Shown here: piece after piece, positions 3,140 through 59,206 of the stretch
Layout of the letters: each line of letters opens with the position of its first letter
Numbering within the stretch: position 1 is the first letter of the stretch
Source: a virus
Strand: one strand, 5' to 3'
IMG/VR virus record: IMGVR_UViG_3300031825_000012
Span: 1 to 60,346 of that record
Length of the DNA stretch: 60,346 nucleotides
Position numbers and translations under genes: made by a program
Notes under the pieces: model-generated
Told to the model about the DNA's origin: nothing
Seen by the model: only the letters and a program-made list of their open reading frames with translations
Databases searched by the model: none

Positions 3140-3979
3140 ATGTCCAGCATTCGAATGACCTGCGATGAATGGATCAAGGTGCCCGACAATCCCCGGCAAC
3201 GCGACACCGAACGACATGCGGCCAAGGCAAAACACCTTCTGGTGCTCTCGCCGACGCACGTGCATGTATCGGCGGCCCAACTCCCGGACAAGAGTCTTAT
3301 CAAGTTGGACGGCCACACGCGCGCATTGGTATGGGGGCGCCGGATAGCAAAGCGCCCGCCTTACGTCGAGGTCGCGATCATCCCGGTATCCTCGCTTGAG
3401 GAAGCCAAGGCGCTCTACGGCCACTATGACAGCAAGGACGCGCTTGAAACGGCCACCGACAAGATTTCTGGCGGGTTCAATGAAATTGGATTCCAGCCGA
3501 AATCCGGACTCCTCAAGTCTGGCCGCATTGGCTCTGCACTGCGAATCGCATGGGTGGCCTTGAAGGGGTGGAGCAAGGAATCTGCGCCCAAAGATACTTA
3601 TCAGATGGTCAATGAATTTGCCGAGGAAATCCTTGCGCTTGACGACATGGAATTGAGCAAGTCGGCGGCAACCTCCGGGATCATCGCGGCGTTTCTGTTG
3701 TCATACCGCAAGCACGGCGACGAGTGTGTTGCGTTTTGGCGCGCAGTCTTCGCAGATGCCGGGACCAAGGCGAATGGTCAAATGGATGCCGTGCAGGCGC
3801 TGAATGAACTGATCTTGCAGCGGAAGGACCGACACGGCGGGAGCGCGATGACCGATCTCTGCGCCCGGGCGCTTCATGCATATGAGAAATATCGCAACGA
3901 GGAACTTCTTGGGATCGTCCCGAGGCCGCTCAACCTATCGGGGTATCTCACAAAGAAGCCCGGCAAGAAGGCCGCGTGA
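3140..3979 (+). CDS. ParB/Srx-like (DGQHR-like) domain protein (279 aa)
   Basis: PDNPRQRD...KLDGHTRALVW resembles the ParB/DndB-type DGxHR motif. Strong AGGAGGA RBS. Confidence 0.5.
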   Translation: MSSIRMTCDEWIKVPDNPRQRDTERHAAKAKHLLVLSPTHVHVSAAQLPDKSLIKLDGHTRALVWGRRIAKRPPYVEVAIIPVSSLEEAKALYGHYDSKDALETATDKISGGFNEIGFQPKSGLLKSGRIGSALRIAWVALKGWSKESAPKDTYQMVNEFAEEILALDDMELSKSAATSGIIAAFLLSYRKHGDECVAFWRAVFADAGTKANGQMDAVQALNELILQRKDRHGGSAMTDLCARALHAYEKYRNEELLGIVPRPLNLSGYLTKKPGKKAA

Positions 3980-4208: not shown

Positions 4209-4983
4209 GCGAATAGGGGCTTGCGAGCTGCATTACGGCGATTGCTTGGACATTATTCTGGGTCTTGATGGCGTTGATCACGTAATCACCGATCCGCCCT
4301 ATGAAGACGAACTGCATCAAGCCGTGGGTCGCATCCGACGTAACGACGGACAGAGGATGATTCAGGATCTTGGTTTCGTCGGCATTAACGCCAGCCGTTC
4401 CAATGTTGCCGCTGCGATTGTCACGATATCTCAGGGATGGGCCATTGTGTTCTGTCTCGCCGAGGGAGTGCGGGCTTGGCGCGATGATATGCAAGCGGTG
4501 GGGGCGAAGTACGACACATGTCTCGCATGGGTGAAGCCAGACGCCTCGCCAAGATTCAACGGGCAGGGCGCAGCGCGCGGGTTTGAATGTGCCATCACAG
4601 CATGGTGTGGTAAGGGCTACCGCCGGTGGAATGGGGGCGGTCGTCGCGGGGTATTCACGCACCCGGTCAATACCGATAGGCAGGGCGAGCATCCGACAGA
4701 GAAGCCGCTGCCGCTGATGCGTGAGATTGTGAGTCTTTATAGCAATCCCGGAGAAATGATCCTGGACCCGTTCTGCGGCAGCGGCACAACAGGAGTTGCG
4801 TGCGCGCGATTAGGCAGGCGCTTTATCGGCATTGAATCCGACCTGCGTTGGTTCGATTTGTCCTGCCGGCGGATTGAGGAAGCCTATCGACAGGGCGATA
4901 TGTTCCGCGAGCCAGCGCCAAAGCCCGAACAGATGAAACTGGACGTCACCGCCAGCATCACCCCACCAGCCGCAGCAGAGTAG
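4189..4983 (+). CDS. DNA methyltransferase, beta-class, probably N6-adenine (264 aa)
   Basis: Motif IV VITDPPYEDE lies N-terminal to motif I ILDPFCGSGTTGVACARLGRRFIGIE. This order is as in CcrM-type enzymes. Confidence 0.85.
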   Translation: MNSHRIERIGACELHYGDCLDIILGLDGVDHVITDPPYEDELHQAVGRIRRNDGQRMIQDLGFVGINASRSNVAAAIVTISQGWAIVFCLAEGVRAWRDDMQAVGAKYDTCLAWVKPDASPRFNGQGAARGFECAITAWCGKGYRRWNGGGRRGVFTHPVNTDRQGEHPTEKPLPLMREIVSLYSNPGEMILDPFCGSGTTGVACARLGRRFIGIESDLRWFDLSCRRIEEAYRQGDMFREPAPKPEQMKLDVTASITPPAAAE

Positions 4984-9575: not shown

Positions 9576-10118
9576 ATGGCCCGAAAGCGCGCGAGACTCA
9601 ACAAGGGCGGGAGACCGCGCATCGAGCGCACCGGCCCCGACCGGGGAACGCCCGAGCAGCAGTTGCGCCGCGCGCTCCTCGCCGGCCCCGGAACCGCCAA
9701 TCAACCACCGGACCCCGTCATGACATCAACTCCCCTGGATATCCTGAAAACCCGCGGCCTGATCTCCCTCGATCAACATTCGGCGGGGCTCGACTATGCC
9801 ACCCTCTACGCGAAGTTCACGGGGCGGTATCGGGACGCCGGGCTAGAGCCAGAGGGGCAGGGAGAGCCCTCAGAGGATGCCGAGGCCGAGGTCGAGCGGA
9901 AATACCGGGCCTGCGCGATAGCGCTCCTGAGCCTCGGGAGGCGCGTCAAAGACGCAACCGACAACCTGGTCATCTATCGCCGTATGCCAGCATGGCTTCA
10001 GGGGGCCTCGCAGAATCCCTCTCGGCGAGCGGGAGCGGAGAGGGAGCGGCAGGCGGCCATCCAGGGGCTCACGGCCTTGGCGATGTCGCTGTTTGGGAAA
10101 ACCCGCAAGGCCGCGTGA
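9576..10118 (+). CDS. Hypothetical protein (180 aa)
   Basis: Internal ATG of ORF 9528..10118 with GAGGA 7 nt upstream. The alternative-frame ORF 9248..10138 is Arg/Pro-rich and is rejected. Confidence 0.55.
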   Translation: MARKRARLNKGGRPRIERTGPDRGTPEQQLRRALLAGPGTANQPPDPVMTSTPLDILKTRGLISLDQHSAGLDYATLYAKFTGRYRDAGLEPEGQGEPSEDAEAEVERKYRACAIALLSLGRRVKDATDNLVIYRRMPAWLQGASQNPSRRAGAERERQAAIQGLTALAMSLFGKTRKAA

Positions 10119-10153
10119 TATCACTCAGGGGGCGTTAACATTTGGGCCATCTA

Positions 10154-10567
10154 ATGCCAAATGAGATTCTACCATTCCCGCGAGCGAGGGGCGCCAAGAC
10201 GATGGACGCTCCGGTGCGGCTGTGCTTGAAAACCGGCTCCATTACGCGCGCTGGTCTCGATCCGATCACCCCGCACACCATCCGGTTCCGAGTATTCACG
10301 GCACTCCTGGCGCACCTAGACCGCCCGATACCCCACGACCAATTTATCGGCGAGGTTTACGGAAACTGCCGGACGCCTCTGAGCGTGACCGCGGTTATCC
10401 AGTGGGCGATATCGGATCTCAGGAAATGGCTGGCCGGCTCCGAATGGTCGATCCACACATGGCACGGCTGGGCCTACGAGATGAAGCGCAGCACGTTCGA
10501 GTTTCGCGGCATCGAACATCGGCCACAAGATCGGCCAAATGATCGGCCAGAACAACGAATCGCATAG
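10154..10567 (+). CDS. OmpR/PhoB-type winged-helix DNA-binding protein (137 aa), last gene of the early operon
   Basis: TIRFRVFTALLAHLDRPIPHDQFIGEVYG....SVTAVIQWAISDLRKWL......IHTWHGWAYEM parallels the trans_reg_C pattern. Confidence 0.6.
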   Translation: MPNEILPFPRARGAKTMDAPVRLCLKTGSITRAGLDPITPHTIRFRVFTALLAHLDRPIPHDQFIGEVYGNCRTPLSVTAVIQWAISDLRKWLAGSEWSIHTWHGWAYEMKRSTFEFRGIEHRPQDRPNDRPEQRIA

Positions 10568-10769
10568 AGTTTCGGCCCCAGAATTGGGGTCGCGCCGGTA
10601 TCCAGTCCGGCTCAGGGGCTCCGGATACGTCCGACCCCGCTAATTACCGCCGAGGTGGGAACGGCCTCCCCACGCGCCAGCAATGGCACAGTAGCCGAAA
10701 GGCGAAGAGATCCCGGAGATGGGCGACCGGGCGGCGGATGGTTGATACCCACGGCCTGAATGTGGCCAA

Positions 10770-10838
10770 AGGAAATCACCAGAAACCTCGTTCAGCGCAA
10801 TGACTTAGGCCGTAAAAACGGCTCAGAGGAAATCACCA
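10770..10838 (+). repeat. 12-nt direct repeat AGGAAATCACCA (10770-10781 and 10827-10838)
   Basis: Read directly. Confidence 0.8.
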
Positions 10839-11239
10839 CTTGCGGCCCTGCTTGCGTCGAAGCCCCGAGTTCCACTCGGGTTACTGATGTAGGCGCTGTG
10901 GGGTCGCATATTGTCCCCGCTCTCCCGTTGGTAGGCGATCGCAACGCCAGCGGTGATCGGGCTCTAAGACCTGACAACAGGCCGGCTGGGTTGATCGCCA
11001 GCCGTTACTATACAGCGCCGTCGCGTTCTCGTGGCGGCCCCAATCTATGAGCTGCGGTTATTGTGCCGAGAAATCGGTCCCCCGCAGACAATTTGTGAGC
11101 CACGAGACTTAGATCACTGCTTCGGCAAATCCCTCGCGGACATAGGTCGTGCGTGCACCCGGGAACCGGCTCTGCGACAGCATCCGGCCCGGGTCAGTCT
11201 TTGCGGCGGCGGCGTTGAAGGAAACGCAGCCTAGCGAGG

Positions 11240-11259
11240 TCCGGAGCAATCCGGAGCAA
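11240..11259 (+). repeat. Tandem direct repeat TCCGGAGCAA x2
   Basis: Read directly. Confidence 0.85.
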
Positions 11260-11434
11260 GGGACAGTGAGGGCAAGCCTGTTGGCGCGGGTGACCGGATT
11301 ACCGGACAAGGCTTAGAGGTCCAACCCGACGATCTGCCGAAGACAGGCGCCATGATACGGCAGTGATGAAATCCGAATAATTGTCGGCAAAGCCCCACAA
11401 GCCGGAATCAAGCCCGGCCCGCCGCAATCATGGC

Positions 11435-11662
11435 CTACTCGATAACCCGCCCGCCTCCGGGTTTGAGCGCCGAGCGGATGCCCGAAATCCGAGCTTTGGC
11501 GAGGCCGCGGATTTTGGCCGCCACGTCATTGGTGACTGGCCACTCTCCGGCTTCCAGGCGATGCAGGTGGCGCCTGGACATGCCGATGGCATTGGCCAGC
11601 GCGGTGCGCCAGCGGGTGCCGAACAGGGCTTCGCCGATGCGGATGAGATCGGTCGGAGTCAT
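11435..11662 (-). CDS. Small HTH (XRE/Cro-like) DNA-binding protein (75 aa)
   Basis: Internal ATG of ORF 11435..11974 with a GAGAGGA RBS. ALANAIGMSRRHLHRLEAGEWPV is HTH-like. Strong G/C3 bias. Confidence 0.7.
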   Translation of the reverse strand: MTPTDLIRIGEALFGTRWRTALANAIGMSRRHLHRLEAGEWPVTNDVAAKIRGLAKARISGIRSALKPGGGRVIE

Positions 11663-11718
11663 GTATCCTCTCTGTCGGCCCTCGCCGCTGGCCCTACCTG
11701 GGTCAGGAGTCGGGGTTG

Positions 11719-11958
11719 TCAGTCGGTCGAGAACTCGGGCACCCAGCCATCGACTGGGCCTGCCTTGCCGCGATCGGGGCAGGCCTTGAGCGCTCTTGTG
11801 GCGATCGCGCCGGTGCCTGCGTAATAGCGTGTGTAGTGTGCCATCGCTTCGCCGGCGGTGCGCGCTCGGCCGATGATATCCGCCATGAGCCCGGCATCGG
11901 CAAAAACGGGGGCTTCCGTTGGATAGGAAAGATTGCTGCGATTGGGGTGGTTGGTCAT
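11719..11958 (-). CDS. Hypothetical protein (79 aa)
   Basis: ORF track; good G/C3 bias; no motif recognised. Confidence 0.6.
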   Translation of the reverse strand: MTNHPNRSNLSYPTEAPVFADAGLMADIIGRARTAGEAMAHYTRYYAGTGAIATRALKACPDRGKAGPVDGWVPEFSTD

Positions 11959-11961
11959 GGC

Positions 11962-12207
11962 TCAACGCTCCCAAGACAGCTTGCGCGGACCGAAGATACG
12001 AAAGCTATGGCTCATGCCGCCGATACCCCTCCACGAAGCCGCCCAAATAGACAAACTGAGGCGACGCTCCGATCGGTAAAATAGAAGGGCAAAACCCCAC
12101 CTCTCATAAGGCGTGCCGGGCACAAACTCATGATAGCGGCTGCTGGCGATGCCAAAGGTCCAGCTATCGTTACAGACGCCGTGTTCGGGATAACGGATGA
12201 TTTTCAT
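11962..12207 (-). CDS. Hypothetical protein (81 aa), Trp/aromatic-rich
   Basis: ORF track. G/C3 bias is weaker than in neighbouring genes (many T-ending codons). First gene of the reverse cassette. Confidence 0.5.
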   Translation of the reverse strand: MKIIRYPEHGVCNDSWTFGIASSRYHEFVPGTPYERWGFALLFYRSERRLSLSIWAASWRGIGGMSHSFRIFGPRKLSWER

Positions 12208-12337
12208 TTTCGTCTCTCCAGCCCCTGATCCCCGAGGCGCGGGCGGCCGGTCGATCCAGCCCTGCTGTCTATGTCATTAATATGGGACATGACGTGGCGG
12301 GATGCAAGAGGAAATTCGCGTAATTTTGTTACTTTCT

Positions 12338-12411
12338 GCGGGGCTCGCCTAGAGGCCTGGCACCAGCCTTCCAAGCTGGCTACGCGGGTTCGATTCCCGC
12401 GCTCCGCTCCA
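12338..12411 (+). tRNA. tRNA-Gly (anticodon UCC), CCA encoded
   Basis: Hand fold: acceptor GCGGGGC/GCTCCGC (one G-T pair); anticodon arm CCAGC-CTTCCAA-GCTGG; T arm GCGGG-TTCGATT-CCCGC; discriminator T then CCA. Closely parallels E. coli glyT in the anticodon and T arms. Confidence 0.85.
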
Positions 12412-12426
12412 ACCAAAGGGAAAACT

Positions 12427-12693
12427 ATGACCGTCTGTCATGCTTCCGACTGTGCCATTCATAACGCGCCTGCATATCCGGCTGGAGCTTGTGATTGCGG
12501 CGTCGAGCCGCAGGGCGGGAAATGGCCGGACCCCACGCCAGAGATGCTGGGAAACTCACGCTTTAACGCAATCTGGAACGCCATCAAGACCTGGGACATC
12601 AATGTTCCCCACGCTTATGGCGGCTATTGCGGCGCCACCGGCAATCATGCGCGCGCAATCTTCGATGCATTGAATGCGAGGGACATCCCATGA
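12427..12693 (+). CDS. Hypothetical Cys-rich protein (88 aa)
   Basis: Internal ATG of ORF 12271..12693, downstream of the tRNA. The upstream part of that ORF overlaps the tRNA and is rejected. Confidence 0.55.
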   Translation: MTVCHASDCAIHNAPAYPAGACDCGVEPQGGKWPDPTPEMLGNSRFNAIWNAIKTWDINVPHAYGGYCGATGNHARAIFDALNARDIP

Positions 12694-12738
12694 AGAAAAC
12701 CACGAAGCGCAAGGGCTCCGGCCGGAAGGGCTGCTGAC

Positions 12739-42451: not shown

Positions 42452-42988
42452 TTATGCTGCCTTTTTCTCGGCTTGCGGCATCAGGTGCTTCCAGCTCTTG
42501 CCGCGGCGAATGACGCTGATTGTGGCATGGTGGACCTTGAAGCGCTGGCCAATGGCCGTATTGGTCCAGCCCTTGCCGATTAGCCGCCATACCTCGAGAA
42601 CATCGGCCTCGGTGAGGAGCGCTCGAGGATTCTTGGTCCCGGCATGATCGCCACCTTTCCACCGGCCTTTCGCCATCTTATCGTCGGCATTGTCCTGATC
42701 GGTTCCGAGAAATAGATGCTTCGGATTGCAGCAGGATCGGTTGTCGCAAGAGTGGCAGACGAGCAGATCGCCGGGATCTTCATTGTTGACCAAGGCATAT
42801 GACAGCCGGTGGGCCCGGACATCCCGATAACTACATGCTTTGAAACGGCCGTAGCCCTCGGGCGAAATTGAGGCCTTCCAGGGCCAACACTCATCCGGCC
42901 CCCTCTGGTCTATCTTCGGCCAGAAGCGCTCCTCGATGGCTTGGCGTTGCTGGGGATTGGTCAGAATGCTAGTTAATGCGATAGCCAT
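42452..42988 (-). CDS. HNH endonuclease with a C-terminal HTH (178 aa)
   Basis: ECWPWKASISPEGYGRF...AHRLSY...LVCHSCDNRSCCNPKHL is an HNH_3 pattern. Internal ATG with a GGAG RBS. Confidence 0.8.
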   Translation of the reverse strand: MAIALTSILTNPQQRQAIEERFWPKIDQRGPDECWPWKASISPEGYGRFKACSYRDVRAHRLSYALVNNEDPGDLLVCHSCDNRSCCNPKHLFLGTDQDNADDKMAKGRWKGGDHAGTKNPRALLTEADVLEVWRLIGKGWTNTAIGQRFKVHHATISVIRRGKSWKHLMPQAEKKAA

Positions 42989-43187
42989 GTTCAGCTCCGT
43001 GCAAAGAGGCAACGTGGTTAGGGCTGGAGAGAGTGTTGGAAGCACTCTCCCAGCCCGGCTTTTGACCAAGATCGACTGTGCCGACTCTTGTGCCGACATT
43101 CTAAGGTCCCAGATTCCTCCAGTTCCTCGAGTTCCGCTGCTAAAAATGCCAAGGTTTTCAGCAGTTTGTATTCAAATCAATGGGGTC

Positions 43188-43276: not shown

Positions 43277-44293
43277 TTATTTAGAAAAATCCCTTGGCGG
43301 TGTGCCGGTTTTTGTGCCGGCTCCCCTGAGGTCGTCGGTCTGTAGATGGGCGTACCTCTGTGTCATCTGCGAGCCCTTGTGACCTAGGATTTTCTGGACG
43401 CGGTAGAGGTCCAGCCCGCGCTTTTGAATCGCCCAGGTGGCGAAAGTGTGCCTGAGATCATGGAACCTAAAGTCCTTGATCCCCGCCTTTTTCACGAGGG
43501 CGGCGAACTTGCTCGAGATCGCATCCACCCTGAGTGCCTTCCCCTCCCCATGCCAGAAAACCAGCGGCGAAATCATGTGCCGCGGCTGTGCCGACATTTG
43601 TGCCGACGCGGCCTTAGACATCGGAACCGTCCGCTGTCCGGTTTTCCCCTCCCTGACATGCAATTCTGCCCGCTCGAGATCGACATCCTGCCGGCGCAGA
43701 TTCAGGATCTCCCCCAGCCTCAATCCTGTTTCCACGGCCACGATGATGATCGGCCGGAGATCCCCCGCGCTCTCGAGCAGCTTTTTGTATTCGACGTCGG
43801 TGAGAAACCGCGTTCGGTGGGGCGATTCCTTCAGCGACCGCTTGCCGAAGCTCTTGACGGGATTGGCCTCGAGCCAGTCCCACTCAACGGCACAGGTCAG
43901 CATGGAACCCAGACAGGCGATGTCCCGGCGGATCGTGGTGTCTGAGACCTTGCCCTTCCGGCTCGAGACGTACTCGGCAAGCATCCCCTTGCCGATCGCG
44001 CCCAGCTCTGCCCCGCCGAAATGCTTCTCAAGGGCCCGGATTGAGCCCATATAGCGGTAGGCGCTCGAGGGTTTCAGCCCCGGCATATATTCGTTGATGA
44101 ATCTGGCCATGGCCTCATCGAAACTGCGCTTGGGCCGCCCGCCTCGAGCTAGGCGCCCGTGCTCTTCCTGCAAATCGCCAAGAAATCTCGAGGCTTTAGC
44201 TTTAGAAGTGGTGTGAGCGGACTGTCTGATTTCCGCGCCGTTGATCTGGAAACGGACCCACCAGATCCGGCCACGCTTGTAAACGTTCGCCAT
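43277..44293 (-). CDS. int: Tyrosine integrase (338 aa)
   Basis: N-terminal YKRGRIWWVRF; C-terminal R...HDLRHTFAT...LGH.....RY catalytic signature. Confidence 0.9.
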   Translation of the reverse strand: MANVYKRGRIWWVRFQINGAEIRQSAHTTSKAKASRFLGDLQEEHGRLARGGRPKRSFDEAMARFINEYMPGLKPSSAYRYMGSIRALEKHFGGAELGAIGKGMLAEYVSSRKGKVSDTTIRRDIACLGSMLTCAVEWDWLEANPVKSFGKRSLKESPHRTRFLTDVEYKKLLESAGDLRPIIIVAVETGLRLGEILNLRRQDVDLERAELHVREGKTGQRTVPMSKAASAQMSAQPRHMISPLVFWHGEGKALRVDAISSKFAALVKKAGIKDFRFHDLRHTFATWAIQKRGLDLYRVQKILGHKGSQMTQRYAHLQTDDLRGAGTKTGTPPRDFSK

Positions 44294-44475
44294 TGCTTCG
44301 GCCGCCGGTTCTTGAGCCAACCGAGATAGTCGGCTCTTGCGACCCGCCAGACCCTACCGATCTTGTAGGCTGGAAGATCCCCACGGGCGGCCAAGTTTGA
44401 CACGAATCGCCGGGTGACGCGCAAGTCCGCCGCAATGTCGGCCAGCGTCAGGCAATCCGTGCCAAGTTCCCTCAT
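44149..44475 (-). CDS. xis: Excisionase-type (MerR/HTH_17-like) DNA-binding protein; the ORF runs about 145 nt into int in another frame
   Basis: LTLADIAADLRVTRRFVSNLAARGDLPAYKIGRVWRVARADYLGWL; AGGAAGG RBS. Confidence 0.7.
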   Translation of the reverse strand: MRELGTDCLTLADIAADLRVTRRFVSNLAARGDLPAYKIGRVWRVARADYLGWLKNRRPKQWRTFTSVAGSGGSVSRSTARKSDSPLTPLLKLKPRDFLAICRKSTGA

Positions 44476-46598: not shown

Positions 46599-46859
46599 TC
46601 ATGGGGTTTCCTGTTCTTTGATCTCAGCAACGCGCCGCATAACCTCTTTGAGCGTCTCGGCCTCGGGGTTGTAGTTCCATCTCCATCTGATTCCGAAGCC
46701 CAAGAGCATCGCCTTTATCTCGAAACCGCCCATGTTGCGTTCATTCTCGATCTCCAAATGGATGACTGTGAACGTCGTCCAGTTGTAACGGCTCGGCATC
46801 AGGACCGCCGGCCATTCGCAATAAAACTCGATCAGCCAGTTGCCGCGCTCGATCATCAT
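46599..46859 (-). CDS. Hypothetical protein (86 aa)
   Basis: ORF track. Confidence 0.5.
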   Translation of the reverse strand: MMIERGNWLIEFYCEWPAVLMPSRYNWTTFTVIHLEIENERNMGGFEIKAMLLGFGIRWRWNYNPEAETLKEVMRRVAEIKEQETP

Positions 46860-47467
46860 TTGTCGCCCTCTATCAGCCTTCCCTGCGGCGTTGGCGCCGT
46901 GAATGTGCCTATCTCCCCCGTGCCCGAGGGTGAGGGGAAGGTGGACCCATATATCTTCTCCTCCGTGACGGGGCCGGCGAGGGCGGCGCGGGATATCTTG
47001 AGCGCCGCACGCCTGTTTCTTTCACACGCCAAACAATGACGCTTAGCGCTGGCCGCCTTCTCTACCCAGGTATTGTCGGGGTTAAAGGCGTGCCCATGCT
47101 TACAGTGAGTTTTGGTGGCATTCCTTGCTGACGCGCTAGTGCCCCGCAGCGTATTTTCCTTCGAGGTCACTATTTCCAAGTGGTGAGGATTAATGCAGCA
47201 CCGCACGCGGCATCGGTGATCCAACTGCATCCCCGCTGGAATCGGCCCATTGACCAACTCATAGCTGGCACGGTGGGCTCTCTGTAATTTGCCATCCCAC
47301 CAAACCTGTCCGTAACCATCAACCGTCCCGCTGTTCATCCACAGGATGCAGCCAGTATTTGGCTCTGGCGTCGAATAGCGCTCTAGCCGTTCGGCCAGCG
47401 TATCTGTGGGGTAGCGCCGGCTCATGCCCTTGGCGGCCCCTCTAGCCTCTTTCACGTCCTCACTCAT
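46856..47467 (-). CDS. HNH endonuclease (203 aa)
   Basis: GCILWMNSGTVDGYGQVWW...AHRASYEL...LDHRCRVRCCINPHHLE. Internal ATG overlaps the upstream stop. Confidence 0.75.
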   Translation of the reverse strand: MSEDVKEARGAAKGMSRRYPTDTLAERLERYSTPEPNTGCILWMNSGTVDGYGQVWWDGKLQRAHRASYELVNGPIPAGMQLDHRCRVRCCINPHHLEIVTSKENTLRGTSASARNATKTHCKHGHAFNPDNTWVEKAASAKRHCLACERNRRAALKISRAALAGPVTEEKIYGSTFPSPSGTGEIGTFTAPTPQGRLIEGDK

Positions 47468-47682
47468 TTCGCTACCCTCAGAATCTTGATCTTGTCGCAG
47501 GTGTAGCCGGCCCGCCGCCAATACGACCATTTGTCGCCGACCATTGCGCCGTTAAGGTGGGTCCAGGCCCTGATAGACCGATTGCGGCTTGTGCGAACGG
47601 TATCGGTCCACATCATCCCGCGTTCATCGAAGACCGCCCAATGGTACGGGCTTTTCTTGCCGAGGAATGTCTTCTCACTCAT
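47464..47682 (-). CDS. Hypothetical protein (72 aa)
   Basis: Internal ATG of ORF 47464..47766 overlapping the upstream stop. Confidence 0.5.
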   Translation of the reverse strand: MSEKTFLGKKSPYHWAVFDERGMMWTDTVRTSRNRSIRAWTHLNGAMVGDKWSYWRRAGYTCDKIKILRVAK

Positions 47683-50873: not shown

Positions 50874-51422
50874 TTAGCTCTCCTGCGCGTTGGTCGGGAA
50901 ATTGAGTCGAGCGAAACTTCCCCATAGTTCTGTAGCGGCGGAGTCATAGGCTCGTGCGGCTTCGATCTCAGTGGGGTATCGCTTCACGATACGCTTGCCT
51001 GTCGGCCCCTTGACCTGCATAAGCCATTTCTGGCGCTCGCGGTCAAAGCCAATGCCGCGGTACTTACTGGTCGCACTTTTGCTTCGTGCATTGGCCAGAT
51101 TTTCTCCGCGCGTTGCGATCCGAAGATTTGAGATTCGATTATCATCTCGAACGCCGTTTATATGATCGATGTCCATATGGCGCGGCGGAAGATCGCCGTG
51201 GACAAACAACCATGCCAGCCGATGGGCGCGGCATATCCGTCCGGCGACTACAATGACGCGGTAGCCGTTCGGCTTAACGGTTCCGGCAATTTCTCCGGCT
51301 ACCGGTCGATATCTGTCCTGCGTCCAAGTAAAATGCCCGGTCTTTTCGTCATAGGTTAGCAGTCGGAATACCTCCGAGAGCCATCCCGCCGTCGTTGTCG
51401 GGTTCAGTTTTGGGGGCGACAT
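50874..51422 (-). CDS. HNH endonuclease with an AP2 DNA-binding domain (182 aa), inserted between recT and the exonuclease gene
   Basis: AHRLAWLFVHGDLP...IDHINGVRDDNRISNLR (HNH_3) followed by YRGIGFDRERQKWLMQV......FPTEIEAARAYD (AP2). Confidence 0.8.
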   Translation of the reverse strand: MSPPKLNPTTTAGWLSEVFRLLTYDEKTGHFTWTQDRYRPVAGEIAGTVKPNGYRVIVVAGRICRAHRLAWLFVHGDLPPRHMDIDHINGVRDDNRISNLRIATRGENLANARSKSATSKYRGIGFDRERQKWLMQVKGPTGKRIVKRYPTEIEAARAYDSAATELWGSFARLNFPTNAQES

Positions 51423-58211: not shown

Positions 58212-58406
58212 CTAGTGGGCAGCGAGGATATATCGGGCCGCCCGGCCAATCAGCCATATAACGACGGCGGCGACCCCATAGAAGATGACCCAGTTGACGG
58301 CCCTCTCGCCGGGAGCCAGTAGCACGAGGATGATGAGGCCAACCAGCAGAACGGCAACAGCGCTAGCCATCCAATAAATGACATTGCCCAGACGCGCCGC
58401 CATCAT
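58212..58406 (-). CDS. Small two-TM membrane protein (64 aa) translationally coupled to the repressor gene
   Basis: The C-terminal part of ORF 58212..58628 from the ATG that overlaps the repressor TGA (ATGA). Confidence 0.55.
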   Translation of the reverse strand: MMAARLGNVIYWMASAVAVLLVGLIILVLLAPGERAVNWVIFYGVAAVVIWLIGRAARYILAAH

Positions 58407-59206
58407 CCCTCCCATTCCCGGTGCGGCACGATACGGTAATACCGCAGCACCCGCTTCATCGGAATCATGAATTCCTTCGCCGGATTGAATTGCCGTAGGA
58501 CAAGCTTCTCCGGTGTTCGGCGCACGAGCTGCTTTACTAGGGCGGCACCGACAGCTTCGCCCTTCTCCGGACGAAGCTCGACCAGGACATAGCAATTGGG
58601 TGTAACGGGCTTCGATGGATTTACCCAAACGGTGTCGCCGGACTCGAACAGCGGCGCCATCGAATCGCCGTCCAGATACAGCCCGAACGCATCCCTCACC
58701 CCCGTCAAAGCAGGAGGCCTGCGATCGTACGCCACTGTCTCACCGTTGAAATAGAATTCTCCTAAGCCGTCGCCGCCGGCCGCAGAGCCCCTGATCGGTA
58801 AGTCTTTGGGCCAATTATGAATATCTGGAGGAGACAGCGGCATTGCGGGCCGCCGAACCTCGTTAGGGATGGGTTCGTCTCCGTAGTCAGGTTCATTGAC
58901 ATCTGTTAACGGCGGATTAATGGCGGTTGTGACAGGCTCGGAACCTTCCCGCTTTGCGACCGTCGGATCGCCGATGAATTCTTCGACGCTCTGCTTGGCC
59001 ATGGCCGCCATGGCCTTAAGGAAGGGGAAATCAGGCATTTGGTCCTGTTTTTCCCAACGAGAGACGGTCGGCTGAGTTGTCCCGAGATGATGGGCAAACT
59101 TCGCCTGATTCATTTTCAGCGACTGCCTTAAGTCGCGAATCCGTCGCGCTAATTCTTTCATGGCGACGGGTATATGCGAGCCCGCATTCTCAGGCAAATA
59201 CGCCAA
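58403..59206 (-). CDS. CI-like repressor: XRE HTH plus S24 (LexA-like) autopeptidase domain (252-267 aa; ATG at 59161 or TTG at 59206)
   Basis: MNQAKFAHHLGTTQPTVSRWEK (HTH); LDGDSMAPLF...LVKQL (Ser/Lys dyad region). Confidence 0.85.
   Translation of the reverse strand: MAYLPENAGSHIPVAMKELARRIRDLRQSLKMNQAKFAHHLGTTQPTVSRWEKQDQMPDFPFLKAMAAMAKQSVEEFIGDPTVAKREGSEPVTTAINPPLTDVNEPDYGDEPIPNEVRRPAMPLSPPDIHNWPKDLPIRGSAAGGDGLGEFYFNGETVAYDRRPPALTGVRDAFGLYLDGDSMAPLFESGDTVWVNPSKPVTPNCYVLVELRPEKGEAVGAALVKQLVRRTPEKLVLRQFNPAKEFMIPMKRVLRYYRIVPHREWEG

What the first reader, a model, noticed from the sequence alone, without database searches (positions are those of the whole stretch)
10568..11434. 867-nt ORF-free, hairpin-dense block at the early/late boundary: candidate large structured RNA or novel regulatory/origin element
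Elsewhere in the window, genes abut or overlap by 1-4 nt. In contrast, 10568-11434 lies between the last early gene (winged-helix protein, stop at 10567) and the reverse cassette/tRNA/terminase block, and it has no ORF with the strong G/C third-position bias of the real genes. The 60-96 aa track ORFs here use TTA, AGA, CTA, AGG and GTA codons. The plus strand carries a run of perfect 6-7 bp helices with short loops: 10574-10591, 10864-10880, 10936-10959, 10983-11004, 11017-11038, 11157-11194 (ACCCGGG/CCCGGGT enclosing CCGG/CCGG), 11274-11314 and 11334-11363. A nested helix at 11052-11087 has an inner stem capped by GAAA, and a UUCG-capped stem sits at 11118-11127. These tetraloops read as GNRA/UUCG only on the plus strand. 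The first hairpin (GGCCCCA/TGGGGTC) shares its 3' arm with an alternative 7-bp pairing, GGGGTCG 10586-10592 with CGACCCC 10632-10638, so the two are mutually exclusive. There is also a 12-nt direct repeat AGGAAATCACCA (10770 and 10827) and a tandem TCCGGAGCAA x2 (11240-11259). My rough estimate is that chance 6-bp stems in 60% GC DNA would account for about half of those seen. The structural argument alone is therefore modest, and the long non-coding stretch is the stronger signal. Some large phage-borne RNAs sit next to tRNA genes, and a tRNA lies 0.9 kb downstream. I could not match any known RNA family by eye.
Basis: partly seen in the sequence, partly recalled or inferred. Interest (0 to 1): 0.7.

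Follow-up and report, generated by a model that had tools for sequence, protein, structure and literature searches.

The report
Phage island of three small RNAs
The 867-base gene-free stretch is not one large RNA but a row of separate small structured RNA genes in a temperate phage: two belong to catalogued families of unknown function, and the third belongs to a widespread, uncatalogued family whose conserved core resembles the top half of a tRNA.

Summary
Window 10568-11434 has no credible gene, every listed hairpin and repeat is present, and the + strand folds better than shuffles (z -3.35; - strand -1.31).

- **Two Rfam families above gathering score, both on +.** Skipping-rope RNA lies at 10645-10739 and DUF3800-VIII RNA at 10842-10907. 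No DUF3800 domain was found in any protein scanned.
- **A third RNA at 11202-11426 (+), absent from Rfam 15.** It has a closing stem P1, a 2-nt linker, a 5-bp hairpin P2 with loop GANGGA, a 43-170+ nt variable domain, and a 5-bp hairpin P4 (loop UAUCAAGC) stacked on P1.
- **Support for the third RNA.** I collected more than 120 distinct members from viral, metagenome and genome contigs. All 17 core pairs covary across two independently ascertained sets. A covariance model built without the window scores it 49.5 bits (E 5e-8).
- **Where the third RNA occurs.** It lies unannotated in phages of Caulobacter, Komagataeibacter, Acidovorax and Pseudanabaena, and often beside same-strand tRNA genes.
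- **tRNA resemblance.** Its invariant bases correspond to tRNA G18, G19, Psi55, C56 and A58.

Function is inferred, not shown.

The parts
10570..10642 (+). A 73-nt element directly after the stop codon of the last early gene. It contains the hairpin GGCCCCA/UGGGGUC. The alternative pairing GGGGUCG/CGACCCC excludes that hairpin. Function is unknown. It could be a regulatory or terminator-like structure, or a recombination boundary of the cargo slot.
   Evidence: It is about 99% identical (69 of 70 bases) to L002 4541-4610, whereas the adjoining coding sequence is only 74% identical. Fold z is -2.49 on + and -1.47 on -. The 17-mer CCCCAGAATTGGGGTCG has no match in IMG/VR. With only two near-identical copies, no covariation test is possible.
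10645..10739 (+). Skipping-rope RNA (Rfam RF02924).
   Evidence: It scores 50.5 bits against a gathering score of 36.7, E 4e-9 over the whole window, with a full-length model match 1-80.
10767..10838 (+). A 15-nt direct repeat, CA(A/G)AGGAAATCACCA, present twice. The two copies flank a small hairpin (GCCGU-AAAAA-ACGGC). It is unassigned.
   Evidence: There are only two copies and no homologue was found, so chance cannot be excluded.
10842..10907 (+). DUF3800-VIII RNA (Rfam RF03075).
   Evidence: It scores 62.4 bits against a gathering score of 40.2, E 2e-9 over the whole window, with a full-length model match 1-64.
10908..11156 (.). Unassigned spacer that holds the hairpins at 10936-10959, 10983-11004, 11017-11038, 11052-11087 and 11118-11127.
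   Evidence: Fold z is -1.18 on + and +0.17 on -. It has no homologue in L002, in 2.2 Mb of fetched loci or in GenBank phages. It has no Rfam match at E<=10.
11157..11194 (+). A G+C-rich nested hairpin (ACCCGGG..CCCGGGU, -22.7 kcal/mol) followed by CAGUCUUUG. It is a possible weak terminator or a processing site between the upstream RNAs and the third RNA.
   Evidence: It is conserved with L002 (11150-11232 is 93% identical). In L002 it directly follows the stop codon of the 77-aa + gene. The consensus terminator scan did not call it.
11202..11426 (+). Member of an uncatalogued structured RNA family with a tRNA-top-half-like core.

Its parts are:
- P1: 11203-11209 pairs with 11419-11425, and can extend to 11201/11427.
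- Linker CG: 11210-11211.
- P2: 11212-11216 pairs with 11223-11227, with loop GAAGGA at 11217-11222.
- Variable domain: 11230-11399.
- Invariant A: 11400.
- P4: 11401-11405 pairs with 11414-11418, with loop AAUCAAGC at 11406-11413.
   Evidence: - Covariance model R1, built from 37 IMG/VR members and excluding the window, scores it 49.5 bits, E 5e-8, full length.
- Covariation is seen in two independently ascertained sets.
- Fold z is -3.00 and the minimum-free-energy structure reproduces P1, P2 and P4.
- It has no Rfam match at E<=10.

Best explanation
**Shown.**
- The block is a gene-free island at the 3' end of the + strand early (replication) operon of a temperate SU10-like podophage.
- It carries at least three separate structured RNA modules on the + strand: a skipping-rope RNA, a DUF3800-VIII RNA, and a roughly 225-nt member of an uncatalogued RNA family.
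- Two sequence islands shared with the one syntenic relative frame the interior, and that interior has been exchanged in the relative. It behaves as a cargo slot.
- The third RNA keeps a fixed core and tolerates any insert between P2 and P4, in one case (L182) a whole tRNA.

**Core of the third RNA.**
- A closing stem of 6-7 or more base pairs.
- A 2-nt linker.
- A 5-bp hairpin whose loop carries an invariant GG.
- A 5-bp hairpin, stacked directly on the closing stem, whose loop carries invariant U, C, purine and A.
- Column for column this matches the tRNA acceptor stem, positions 8-9, the D arm with G18 and G19, and the T arm with Psi55, C56, R57 and A58.

**Inferred.**
- The RNAs are transcribed as an untranslated tail of the early operon, or from weak promoters of their own, and host RNases trim them as they trim tRNAs. 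Family members almost never have their own terminator and often sit inside same-strand tRNA arrays.
- The third RNA acts as a mimic of the tRNA elbow and acceptor. It engages a host factor that recognises that shape, such as a tRNA-processing or tRNA-modifying enzyme or a tRNA-directed defence protein. The variable domain is either cargo or a specificity module.
- The two Rfam RNAs belong to classes genetically tied to DUF3800 (RNase H-like, defence-linked) proteins. No DUF3800 domain was found in any protein scanned, so the most likely target is a host-encoded partner.
For: **Known modules.**
- Both Rfam hits lie above gathering score and on the + strand.

**Modularity.**
- L002 shares only 10570-10642 and 11150-11232 with the block.
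- L002 lacks both Rfam RNAs and carries a 77-aa gene in their place.

**Size of the third family.**
- A P2 19-mer recovered about 40 members from IMG/VR, JGI metagenomes and GTDB genomes.
Of these, 88 have the full architecture.

**Covariation.**
- P2-ascertained set: 98.3% of cells paired, and all P1 and P4 pairs show changes on both sides.
- P4-ascertained set: 99.3% paired, with changes on both sides in 6 of 7 P1 pairs and 5 of 5 P2 pairs. The covariation score is 0.61 against 0.14 for shuffles and at most 0.11 for slid partners.
- G-U pairs outnumber A-C pairs 21 to 5, which fixes the folding strand.

**Cross-validation.**
- Model R1, built from the P4 set, finds the window.
- R1 also finds all 50 true members of the P2 set and none of the chance 19-mer matches inside coding sequence.

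**Genomic context.**
- Same-strand tRNA genes lie within about 1.4 kb in about 11 of 40 P2-set loci (within 1 kb in most) and within 1 kb in 11 of 88 P4-set loci. All but one are on the same strand, the exception being about 2.3 kb away in L107.
- In L120 the RNA is embedded in an array of eight tRNAs.
- Terminator-like sites lie downstream in 1 of 119 members.

**tRNA-like signature.**
- G18, G19, U39, C40 and A42 are invariant.
- Position 9 covaries with pair 12-23 (Fisher p 3e-7).
- L141 has a canonical T arm in place of P4, and L182 nests a full tRNA in its variable domain.

**DUF3800.**
- No DUF3800 domain was found in any window protein scanned.
- DUF3800 is described as an RNase H-like, defence-linked domain whose associated RNAs have unknown function.
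Against: **No expression data.**
- Transcription, RNA ends and stability are all inferred.

**Partial circularity in selecting members.**
- Members were accepted only if P1, and in the second set also P2, could pair. The percentage of paired cells is therefore partly built in.
- Three results do not depend on that filter: the spread of pair types, the slid-partner controls and the cross-set model search.

**Weak points in the tRNA mimicry.**
- P1 varies from 6 to about 23 bp, and there is no discriminator base or CCA. The RNA cannot be a chargeable tRNA, and long P1 helices would hinder RNase P.
- The P4 loop has 8 nt, not 7.
- In 22 of 109 members, the window included, the base that would be T54 is A.
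- The 9/12-23 association is not corrected for phylogeny.

**No partner identified.**
- No protein partner recurs next to the third RNA.
- Most members are not next to tRNA genes.
- No other member locus carries skipping-rope or DUF3800 RNAs. The three RNAs may be unrelated passengers.
- The idea that DUF3800-type RNAs act on a host protein is speculation.

**Unexplained sequence.**
- About 320 nt of the block (10740-10841 and 10908-11156) remain unexplained.
Confidence: 0.6

Rival explanations
1. The structures act in cis on the transcript and are not trans-acting RNA genes. On this reading they form a long structured 3' tail of the early operon. That tail would protect the mRNA from 3' exonucleases, punctuate it by RNase P or RNase E cleavage at the tRNA-like fold, and stop read-through into the convergent reverse cassette.
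For: - The island lies exactly between the last + strand early gene and a convergent - strand gene whose stop codon is 8 nt beyond the third RNA.
- Family members lack their own terminators and mostly lack recognisable promoters.
- In Pseudanabaena phage Pan3 the RNA sits at the same junction: + genes, RNA, reverse small genes, TerS.
- The conserved hairpin at 11157-11194 follows the stop codon of a + gene in L002.
Against: - The third RNA also occurs inside tRNA arrays, next to an integrase, and in many unrelated contexts, with no fixed relation to an upstream gene.
- A mere stabiliser would not need invariant loop bases that match the tRNA elbow.
- The authors of skipping-rope and the DUF3800 motifs judged them unlikely to be cis-regulatory.
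Confidence: 0.2
2. The whole 867 nt is one large structured RNA, comparable to GOLLD or ROOL, which lie near tRNA genes in phages.
For: - The + strand of the whole block folds better than shuffles, z -3.35.
- A tRNA gene lies 0.9 kb downstream.
- GOLLD and ROOL are reported near tRNAs and in prophages.
Against: - Rfam 15 includes GOLLD and ROOL and gives no such hit. It resolves two small independent families instead.
- L002 keeps the ends of the block and swaps the middle.
- The third RNA closes on itself with P1 and occurs alone in more than 120 other loci.
- The central 250 nt fold no better than chance.
Confidence: 0.04
3. The block is a DNA-level element. It would be a replication origin or packaging site, or a regulatory region bound by the adjacent winged-helix protein. 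The hairpins would then be incidental, or would form in single-stranded DNA.
For: - The block lies next to a putative DNA-binding protein gene and downstream of the helicase/primase module.
- It contains two short direct repeats.
- The 73-nt island at 10570-10642 is conserved more strongly than the neighbouring gene.
Against: - There are no iteron arrays, only two-copy repeats.
- G+C stays at about 0.60 across the block, with no A+T-rich dip or skew switch.
- Compensatory changes with a G-U over A-C bias of 21 to 5 point to a transcribed strand.
- Two modules match RNA covariance models.
Confidence: 0.06
4. The block is a decayed, frame-shifted remnant of one or more protein genes.
For: - Gene callers placed a 66-aa ORF at 11109-11309 on the - strand.
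- The minus frame containing that ORF has the least negative codon score over 10980-11220.
Against: - That ORF has no homologue among 5.8 billion proteins other than itself.
- It is not open in L002, although the DNA there is 93% identical.
- It overlaps the conserved P1 and P2 of a covarying RNA on the other strand.
- Blastn of the block against GenBank phages finds nothing.
Confidence: 0.03

Closest known systems
Skipping-rope RNA motif (Rfam RF02924; Weinberg et al. 2017, PMC5737381)
   Same: Window 10645-10739 matches the full model above the gathering score, on the + strand. The family is described as a complex-folded RNA of unknown function that is not a riboswitch or self-cleaving ribozyme, and as associated with particular nearby proteins.
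   Different: The family is described as having a Rho-independent terminator at its 3' end. None is recognisable here. No DUF3800-type partner gene was found in this phage.
DUF3800-VIII RNA motif (Rfam RF03075)
   Same: Window 10842-10907 matches the full model at 62.4 bits against a gathering score of 40.2.
   Different: The motif class is defined by proximity to DUF3800 genes. Here the RNA is an orphan in a 60-kb phage genome in which no DUF3800 domain was detected.
tRNA, and tRNA-like domains of other RNAs (tmRNA tRNA-like domain, bacterial Y RNA YrlA, viral 3' tRNA-like structures)
   Same: - The third RNA has a closing stem of 7 or more bp, a 2-nt linker and a first hairpin starting at position 10 with an invariant GG at positions 18-19.
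- Its last hairpin has a 5-bp stem abutting the closing stem, and its loop carries U-C-R-A where tRNA has Psi55-C56-R57-A58.
- It is co-located and co-oriented with tRNA genes.
- As in tmRNA and YrlA (my own knowledge), the anticodon arm is replaced by another domain.
   Different: - ARAGORN does not recognise it, and Rfam's tRNA and tmRNA models do not match at E<=10, apart from tmRNA_permuted at 9.1 bits against a gathering score of 47 on L062.
- The closing stem has variable length, and there is no discriminator base or CCA.
- The first hairpin has a 5-bp stem with a fixed 6-nt loop.
- The last loop has 8 nt.
- There is no anticodon arm, no tag reading frame and no Ro/Rsr gene nearby.
RAGATH-21 RNA (Rfam RF03097)
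   Same: It is the best sub-threshold Rfam match to the shortest family member, L062. The two share an outline: a closing stem, an A-rich 5' segment ending in GAAAC, and a 3' hairpin with loop UGCAA(U/G)U stacked on the closing stem.
   Different: The match scores 14.8 bits against a gathering score of 70.3, with E 2.4. The window copy does not match at all. This is a lead for distant kinship, not membership.
Stable non-tRNA RNAs encoded in phage tRNA clusters (phage T4 species 1 and 2, rnaC and rnaD; from my own knowledge, not checked here)
   Same: They are small stable RNAs of unknown function, encoded among phage tRNA genes and matured by the tRNA-processing machinery.
   Different: No sequence or structure comparison was made. 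The hosts are different and homology is unknown.

Membership tests
Skipping-rope RNA (RF02924) | Covariance-model score at or above Rfam's gathering score over the full model. | tested here: met
   It scores 50.5 bits against 36.7, covering model positions 1-80 of 80, at 10645-10739 on +.
Skipping-rope RNA (RF02924) | A Rho-independent terminator at the 3' end (as described in PMC5737381). | tested here: not met
   The consensus scan finds no terminator-like site on + in 10000-12700. The sequence after 10739 has no G+C-rich stem followed by a U run.
Skipping-rope and DUF3800-VIII RNAs | A partner protein gene (DUF3800 or a related domain) encoded nearby. | tested here: not met
   Pfam scans of the neighbouring genes and of most window ORFs of at least 170 aa (those not nested in a longer ORF), plus precomputed Pfam hits for window 3217-24473, show no DUF3800. 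Very divergent or short partners cannot be excluded.
DUF3800-VIII RNA (RF03075) | Covariance-model score at or above Rfam's gathering score over the full model. | tested here: met
   It scores 62.4 bits against 40.2, covering model positions 1-64 of 64, at 10842-10907 on +.
New family (model R1; P1-P2-variable-P4) | A significant full-length match to a covariance model built from independent members. | tested here: met
   Window 11203-11425 on + scores 49.5 bits, E 5e-8, covering model positions 1-123 of 123. The window was not in the seed alignment.
New family (model R1; P1-P2-variable-P4) | The core features: closing stem, C-R linker, 5-bp P2 with GANGGA loop, invariant A before P4, and 5-bp P4 with a W-R-U-C-R-A-R-Y loop abutting P1. 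| tested here: met
   All are present at 11203-11229 and 11400-11425. The minimum-free-energy fold reproduces the three stems.
tRNA (RF00005) | Recognition by tRNA detectors: cloverleaf with anticodon arm, 7-bp acceptor stem, discriminator base. | tested here: not met
   ARAGORN calls only tRNA-Gly at 12338-12411. There is no tRNA-model hit at E<=10 on 10400-11700 or on L062. P1 length varies from 6 to 23 bp.
tRNA-like elbow (D-loop/T-loop interaction) | Conserved GG in the first loop, U-C-R-A in the last loop, and three-dimensional contact between the two loops. | tested here: inconclusive
   The bases are invariant in 109 sequences. The last loop has one extra base. The U-C-A invariance was partly imposed by my selection filters. 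The 3D contact cannot be tested with these tools.
tmRNA | A tRNA-like domain with a G-U pair at position 3-70, a tag reading frame and pseudoknots. | tested here: not met
   ARAGORN finds no tmRNA. Rfam tmRNA_permuted scores 9.1 bits against a gathering score of 47. The third pair of P1 is G-C in the window. Variable domains as short as 43 nt leave no room for a tag frame.
Large phage-borne RNAs near tRNAs (GOLLD, ROOL) | A match to the Rfam models, and one large conserved fold. | tested here: not met
   There is no hit at the gathering score or at E<=10. The block is modular.
RAGATH-21 (RF03097) | Covariance-model score at or above the gathering score. | tested here: not met
   L062 scores 14.8 bits against 70.3. 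The window has no hit.
Iteron-type replication origin | An array of three or more direct repeats, an A+T-rich unwinding region, and binding by an initiator protein. | tested here: not met
   Only two-copy repeats occur inside the block. G+C is flat at about 0.60. Protein binding cannot be tested here.

The most novel reading that the evidence does not exclude
The RNA at 11202-11426 would represent a previously undescribed, widespread class of phage RNAs that keep only the top half of a tRNA (acceptor-like stem, D-like hairpin and T-like hairpin forming an elbow). They would use it as a scaffold for a hypervariable inserted domain. The scaffold would recruit the host tRNA-processing machinery or a tRNA-directed defence factor, and the insert would supply phage-specific cargo or specificity. 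In this phage it sits with two orphan DUF3800-class RNAs. Together these would form an RNA-only counter-defence or host-takeover island.
Probability: 0.25. Interest if true: 0.85.

Novelty: new variant of a known kind. Interest (0 to 1): 0.62.

Why it matters
- **A testable new family.** The third RNA has strong comparative support. There are more than 120 distinct sequences, all three core stems covary, and members occur in phages of Alpha- and Betaproteobacteria and Cyanobacteria. Four of these phages are culturable and have known hosts. The family is absent from Rfam 15 and unannotated in GenBank records. Its core reproduces the conserved tertiary-contact bases of tRNA, which gives a concrete hypothesis: mimicry of the tRNA elbow. 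Tractable systems exist, for example Caulobacter phage DMCA on strain CB15.
- **A handle on the DUF3800 RNAs.** The function of the DUF3800-associated RNAs and of skipping-rope has been open since 2017. A phage that carries two of them with no detectable DUF3800 gene suggests they can work against, or together with, a host-encoded partner. That can be tested by deleting them.
- **A lesson for annotation.** Long gene-free stretches at phage module junctions can be arrays of small RNA genes rather than single elements.

Tried and rejected
**Searches that found little or nothing.**
- Blastn of the whole block against 50,697 GenBank phages found no match.
- A relative search with the upstream 141-aa protein in IMG/VR found none. 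With the HTH protein it found one distant, uninformative locus.
- A protein search with the upstream gene found only one relative, P0002 on L002. Block-level synteny therefore rests on two genomes.
- The 17-mer from the 5' island had no match in IMG/VR.
- The block's other parts have no similarity to any of 267 fetched loci.
- Exact look-ups of two window proteins failed, probably because the start codons differ.

**Tests for a partner or for a known family.**
- Blastp clustering of ORFs within 2.5-3 kb of the RNA was run on 47 and then 123 loci. No recurrent family appeared. The largest clusters were a lysozyme (7 loci) and a small-terminase-like protein (6 loci).
- Rfam at gathering score was run on 46 member loci. 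It returned only tRNAs, one Burkholderiales-2 hit and one marginal abiF hit that I regard as a probable chance hairpin.
- Rfam at E<=10 on the shortest member gave only weak RAGATH-21, Tymo_tRNA-like and tmRNA_permuted hits.

**Scans with weak or negative results.**
- The promoter and terminator consensus scan of the region found nothing above shuffles.
- The codon-usage scan has weak discriminating power in this genome.

**Literature.**
- I found no description of the third RNA. A 2023 catalogue of 8,495 unnamed IMG/VR candidate RNAs (PMC10690425) may or may not contain it.
- The supplementary text of PMC5737381 on skipping-rope partners is not held.

**Readings considered and rejected.**
- A single large RNA, a replication origin and a decayed gene; see the rival explanations.
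- An attP core copied from the 3' end of a tRNA gene. This fails because the 5' strand is present and covaries.
- A retron ncRNA. This fails because no reverse transcriptase gene is nearby.
Full report
**1. Setting**

- The window is almost the whole of a 60,360-nt metagenomic contig (ENA ERZ27250632 k141_569978).
- It is a temperate tailed phage:
  - SU10-type portal, major capsid and adaptor proteins and a Terminase_3 large subunit.
  - A tyrosine integrase at 43277-44320 (-) and a CI-like HTH/S24 repressor at 58403-59206 (-).
- No isolated phage is close. The best large-terminase identity is 56%.
- The + strand early operon runs from a DnaB-like helicase/primase to a 121-141-aa protein that ends at 10567. 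That protein has a weak, sub-threshold Trans_reg_C match.
- After the block come three small reverse genes (11435-12207; the first is an HTH protein), then tRNA-Gly(UCC) at 12338-12411 (+), then the small and large terminase genes.

**2.

- The only ORF that gene callers placed in the block is 66 aa, at 11109-11309 on the - strand.
  - It has no homologue but itself among 5.8 billion proteins.
  - It is closed in the one relative, although the DNA there is 93% identical.
- The + strand of the whole block folds better than dinucleotide shuffles, z -3.35 (0 of 20 as good). The - strand does not, z -1.31.
- The excess structure is unevenly spread:

| Segment | z-score (+ strand) |
|---|---|
| 10568-10644 | -2.49 |
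| 10645-10907 | -2.21 |
| 10908-11156 | -1.18 (- strand: +0.17) |
| 11202-11426 | -3.00 |

That was fair, but it was the wrong half that drew attention.

**3. Two modules are known RNA families**

- Rfam 15 at gathering thresholds gives three hits in the whole window: the tRNA and two hits inside the block, both on +.
  - Skipping-rope (RF02924) at 10645-10739, 50.5 bits against a gathering score of 36.7.
  - DUF3800-VIII (RF03075) at 10842-10907, 62.4 bits against 40.2.
- Both come from Weinberg et al. 2017. That paper says:
  - Skipping-rope is a complex-folded RNA that is unlikely to be a riboswitch or a self-cleaving ribozyme.
  - It is associated with particular proteins encoded nearby.
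  - The eleven unrelated DUF3800 motifs all accompany DUF3800 genes and have no known function.
- Later papers describe DUF3800 as an RNase H-like fold linked to mobile elements and defence loci. They still give no role for the RNAs.
- I found no DUF3800 domain in any window protein I scanned. The scans covered the neighbouring genes, most ORFs of at least 170 aa (those not nested in a longer ORF), and precomputed hits for window 3.2-24.4 kb.
- These two RNAs are therefore orphans in this phage.
- I also found no terminator after skipping-rope, although the family description includes one.

**4. The block is modular**

- The upstream protein has a single relative in 5.8 billion proteins: P0002, 69% identical, on a 10-kb Logan contig, L002.
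- L002 has the same gene order. Rfam finds only the tRNA on it.
- Aligning the two intergenic regions shows two islands of near identity:
  - 10570-10642, about 99% identical, against 74% for the adjoining gene.
  - 11150-11232, 93% identical.
- Between the islands L002 has unrelated sequence and a 77-aa gene with a good ribosome-binding site.
- The interior has therefore been exchanged between the two phages, behaving as a cargo slot framed by the shared islands.
- That rules out a single large RNA.
I cannot say what it does.

**5. A third, uncatalogued RNA**

*Discovery*
- The second island led further. A 22-mer from it occurs in five IMG/VR contigs.
- In each contig a conserved hairpin lies 100-190 nt downstream. 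The bases just 5' of the 22-mer pair with the bases just 3' of that hairpin, with compensatory changes.

*Collecting members*
- Shorter P2 patterns (16-mer and 19-mer) were scanned over IMG/VR, GTDB genomes and JGI/ENA metagenomes. They gave about 40 distinct true members, plus many chance matches inside genes that lack the rest of the structure.
Of these, 88 show the full architecture.

*Architecture*
- P1 is a closing stem of 6-23 bp.
- The linker is C plus a purine.
- P2 is a 5-bp hairpin with loop GA(A/U)GGA.
- The variable domain is 43 to more than 170 nt.
- An invariant A follows.
- P4 is a 5-bp hairpin with an 8-nt loop (U/A)AUC(A/G)AGC.
- The 3' strand of P1 follows P4 with no spacer.

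*Covariation*
- In the P2-ascertained set (34 sequences), all seven P1 pairs and all five P4 pairs change on both sides.
- In the P4-ascertained set (75 sequences), six of seven P1 pairs and all five P2 pairs do so.
  - 99.3% of cells are paired.
  - The covariation score is 0.61, against 0.14 for shuffles and at most 0.11 when partners are slid.
- Each stem is therefore tested in a set that was not selected on its sequence.
- Caveat: I accepted members only if P1, and in the second set also P2, could pair. The percentage paired is thus partly built in. The range of pair types and the controls are not.
- G-U pairs outnumber A-C pairs 21 to 5, so the strand shown is the folding strand.

*Cross-validation*
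- Covariance model R1 was built from 37 P4-set members without the window.
- It scores the window at 49.5 bits, E 5e-8, at 11203-11425 on +.
- It finds all 50 true members among 95 loci of the P2 set and none of the chance matches.

*Not in Rfam*
- The window copy has no hit at E<=10.
- At gathering score, 46 member loci show only tRNAs and two unrelated hits.
- The shortest member's best hit is RAGATH-21, at 14.8 bits against a gathering score of 70.3.

**6. Where the third RNA lives**

It occurs in isolated phages, always in unannotated gaps:

| Phage | R1 score | Context |
|---|---|---|
| Caulobacter phage DMCA | 74 bits | between a transposase and the integrase |
| Acidovorax phage AP1 | 71 bits | unannotated gap |
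| Komagataeibacter phage phiKX1 | 68 bits | about 120 nt after tRNA-Met |
| Pseudanabaena phage Pan3 | 59 bits | early + genes, RNA, reverse small genes, TerS, the same junction as in the window |

- Three alphaproteobacterial genomes (Aminobacter, Aliidongia and an unclassified MAG) also carry it.
- No protein family recurs beside it.
- tRNA genes do recur:
  - They lie within about 1.4 kb in about 11 of 40 P2-set loci (within 1 kb in most) and within 1 kb in 11 of 88 P4-set loci.
  - All but one are on the same strand, the exception being about 2.3 kb away in L107. Some lie 3-9 nt from the RNA, and in L120 the RNA sits inside an eight-tRNA array.
- Only 1 of 119 members has a terminator-like site downstream. 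Ten have a sigma-70-like promoter upstream, against none in a downstream control.
- The ends are therefore probably made by processing, as for tRNAs.

**7. What it resembles**

Numbered from the first base of a 7-bp P1, the core matches tRNA numbering:

| Core element | Columns | tRNA counterpart |
|---|---|---|
| P1 | 1-7 | acceptor stem |
| Linker | 8-9 | positions 8-9 |
| P2 stem | 10-14 with 21-25 | D stem |
| Invariant G, G | 18, 19 | G18, G19 |
| P4 stem, 5 bp, abutting P1 | 32-36 with 45-49 | T stem |
| P4 loop U/A, (extra A), U, C, R, A | 37-42 | T54, Psi55, C56, R57, A58 |

- The invariant bases of the family are exactly those that make the tRNA D-loop/T-loop elbow.
- Position 9 covaries with pair 12-23. 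It is A with A-U in 8 of 10 cases and G with G-C in 89 of 94 (Fisher p 3e-7, not corrected for phylogeny). This recalls the tRNA 9-12-23 triple.
- One member (L141) has a canonical T arm in place of P4.
- One member (L182) nests a complete tRNA in its variable domain, and two others carry tRNA-like pieces there.
- It is still not a tRNA or a tmRNA:
  - The detectors and Rfam models reject it.
  - P1 length varies and there is no CCA.
  - There is no anticodon arm.
  - The P4 loop has an extra base.
- The resemblance is to the tRNA top half, as in the tRNA-like domains of tmRNA and bacterial Y RNAs (my own knowledge).

**8. Mechanism, with shown and inferred steps kept apart**

*Shown*
- There are three + strand RNA modules.
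- The slot is modular.
- The third family is supported by covariation and is wide in range.
- It is partly associated with tRNA genes.
- Terminators are absent.
- No DUF3800 gene is detectable in the phage.

*Inferred*
- The RNAs are co-transcribed with the early operon and trimmed by host RNases.
- The third RNA mimics the tRNA elbow and acceptor towards a host factor. Its variable domain serves as cargo or as a specificity module.
- The two DUF3800-class RNAs act on a host-encoded partner.

*Main rival*
- The structures may act in cis, as a protective or punctuating 3' tail at a convergent junction. I give this 0.2.
- A single large RNA, an origin and a decayed gene are each unlikely, for the reasons in the rival entries.

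**9. Verdict**

- The finding is real, and more interesting than a run of hairpins, but for reasons other than those proposed.
- Two parts are new members of known families of unknown function.
- One part belongs to a family that I could not find described. A 2023 catalogue of unnamed phage RNA candidates (PMC10690425) may list it; I could not check.
- About 320 nt of the block remain unexplained.

Noticed in passing
window 10518-10557: Three tandem 12-nt units (ATCGGCCAnAnnAnCG) lie inside the 3' end of the upstream gene. They encode a repeated (R)P(Q/N/E)D/QR-type C-terminal tail. L002's protein lacks this exact repeat.
   Followed up: no
window 12265-12415, matching L002 6566-6717: The divergent region between the reverse cassette and tRNA-Gly is 82% identical to L002. 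It contains an imperfect palindrome (ATGTCATTAATATGGGACATGAC). This could be an operator or a late promoter in front of the tRNA and terminase operon.
   Followed up: no
L002 4954-5187 (+): In the relative, the slot between the two conserved islands carries a 77-aa gene with a strong ribosome-binding site instead of the two Rfam RNAs. The slot can therefore hold protein-coding or RNA cargo.
   Followed up: partly
L182 2230-2384 (+): A family member whose variable domain contains a complete tRNA, called tRNA-Ser(GGA) by ARAGORN, with a 7-bp acceptor stem. L004 and L031 carry D-arm-like and T-arm-like pieces at the same place.
   Followed up: partly
L141 about 3571-3650 (+); L098 and L135: L141 has a canonical T arm (CUCCG-UUCGACU-CGGAG) in place of P4. 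L098 and L135 keep P1 5' and P2 but lack P4, and in L098 a tRNA-Gly(UCC) follows instead. These may be recombinants between the RNA and neighbouring tRNA genes.
   Followed up: no
L175 7856-7891 (-): A marginal Rfam abiF RNA hit (41.1 bits against a gathering score of 37) lies about 20 nt downstream of the family member in this IMG/VR contig. It is a simple G+C-rich hairpin and may be a chance match. If real, it would be another defence-linked RNA carried by a phage.
   Followed up: partly
window 42452-43099, 46856-47530 and 50874-51422 (all -): Three separate HNH_3 homing-endonuclease-like genes, one of them fused to an AP2 domain, lie in the recombination and early region of the phage.
   Followed up: no
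L179 (IMGVR_UViG_3300044691_000698) 2659-2677 and 4820-4838 (-): Two copies of the family lie about 2.1 kb apart in one phage contig, with the same P1 sequence (UACCGAG/CUCGGUA). One copy has a disrupted P2.
   Followed up: no
L270 (Caulobacter phage DMCA PQ480021.1 25554-25686): Here the RNA lies in the gap between a transposase gene and the 3' end of the integrase gene, where attP would be expected. I did not examine whether the RNA overlaps the attachment site.
   Followed up: no
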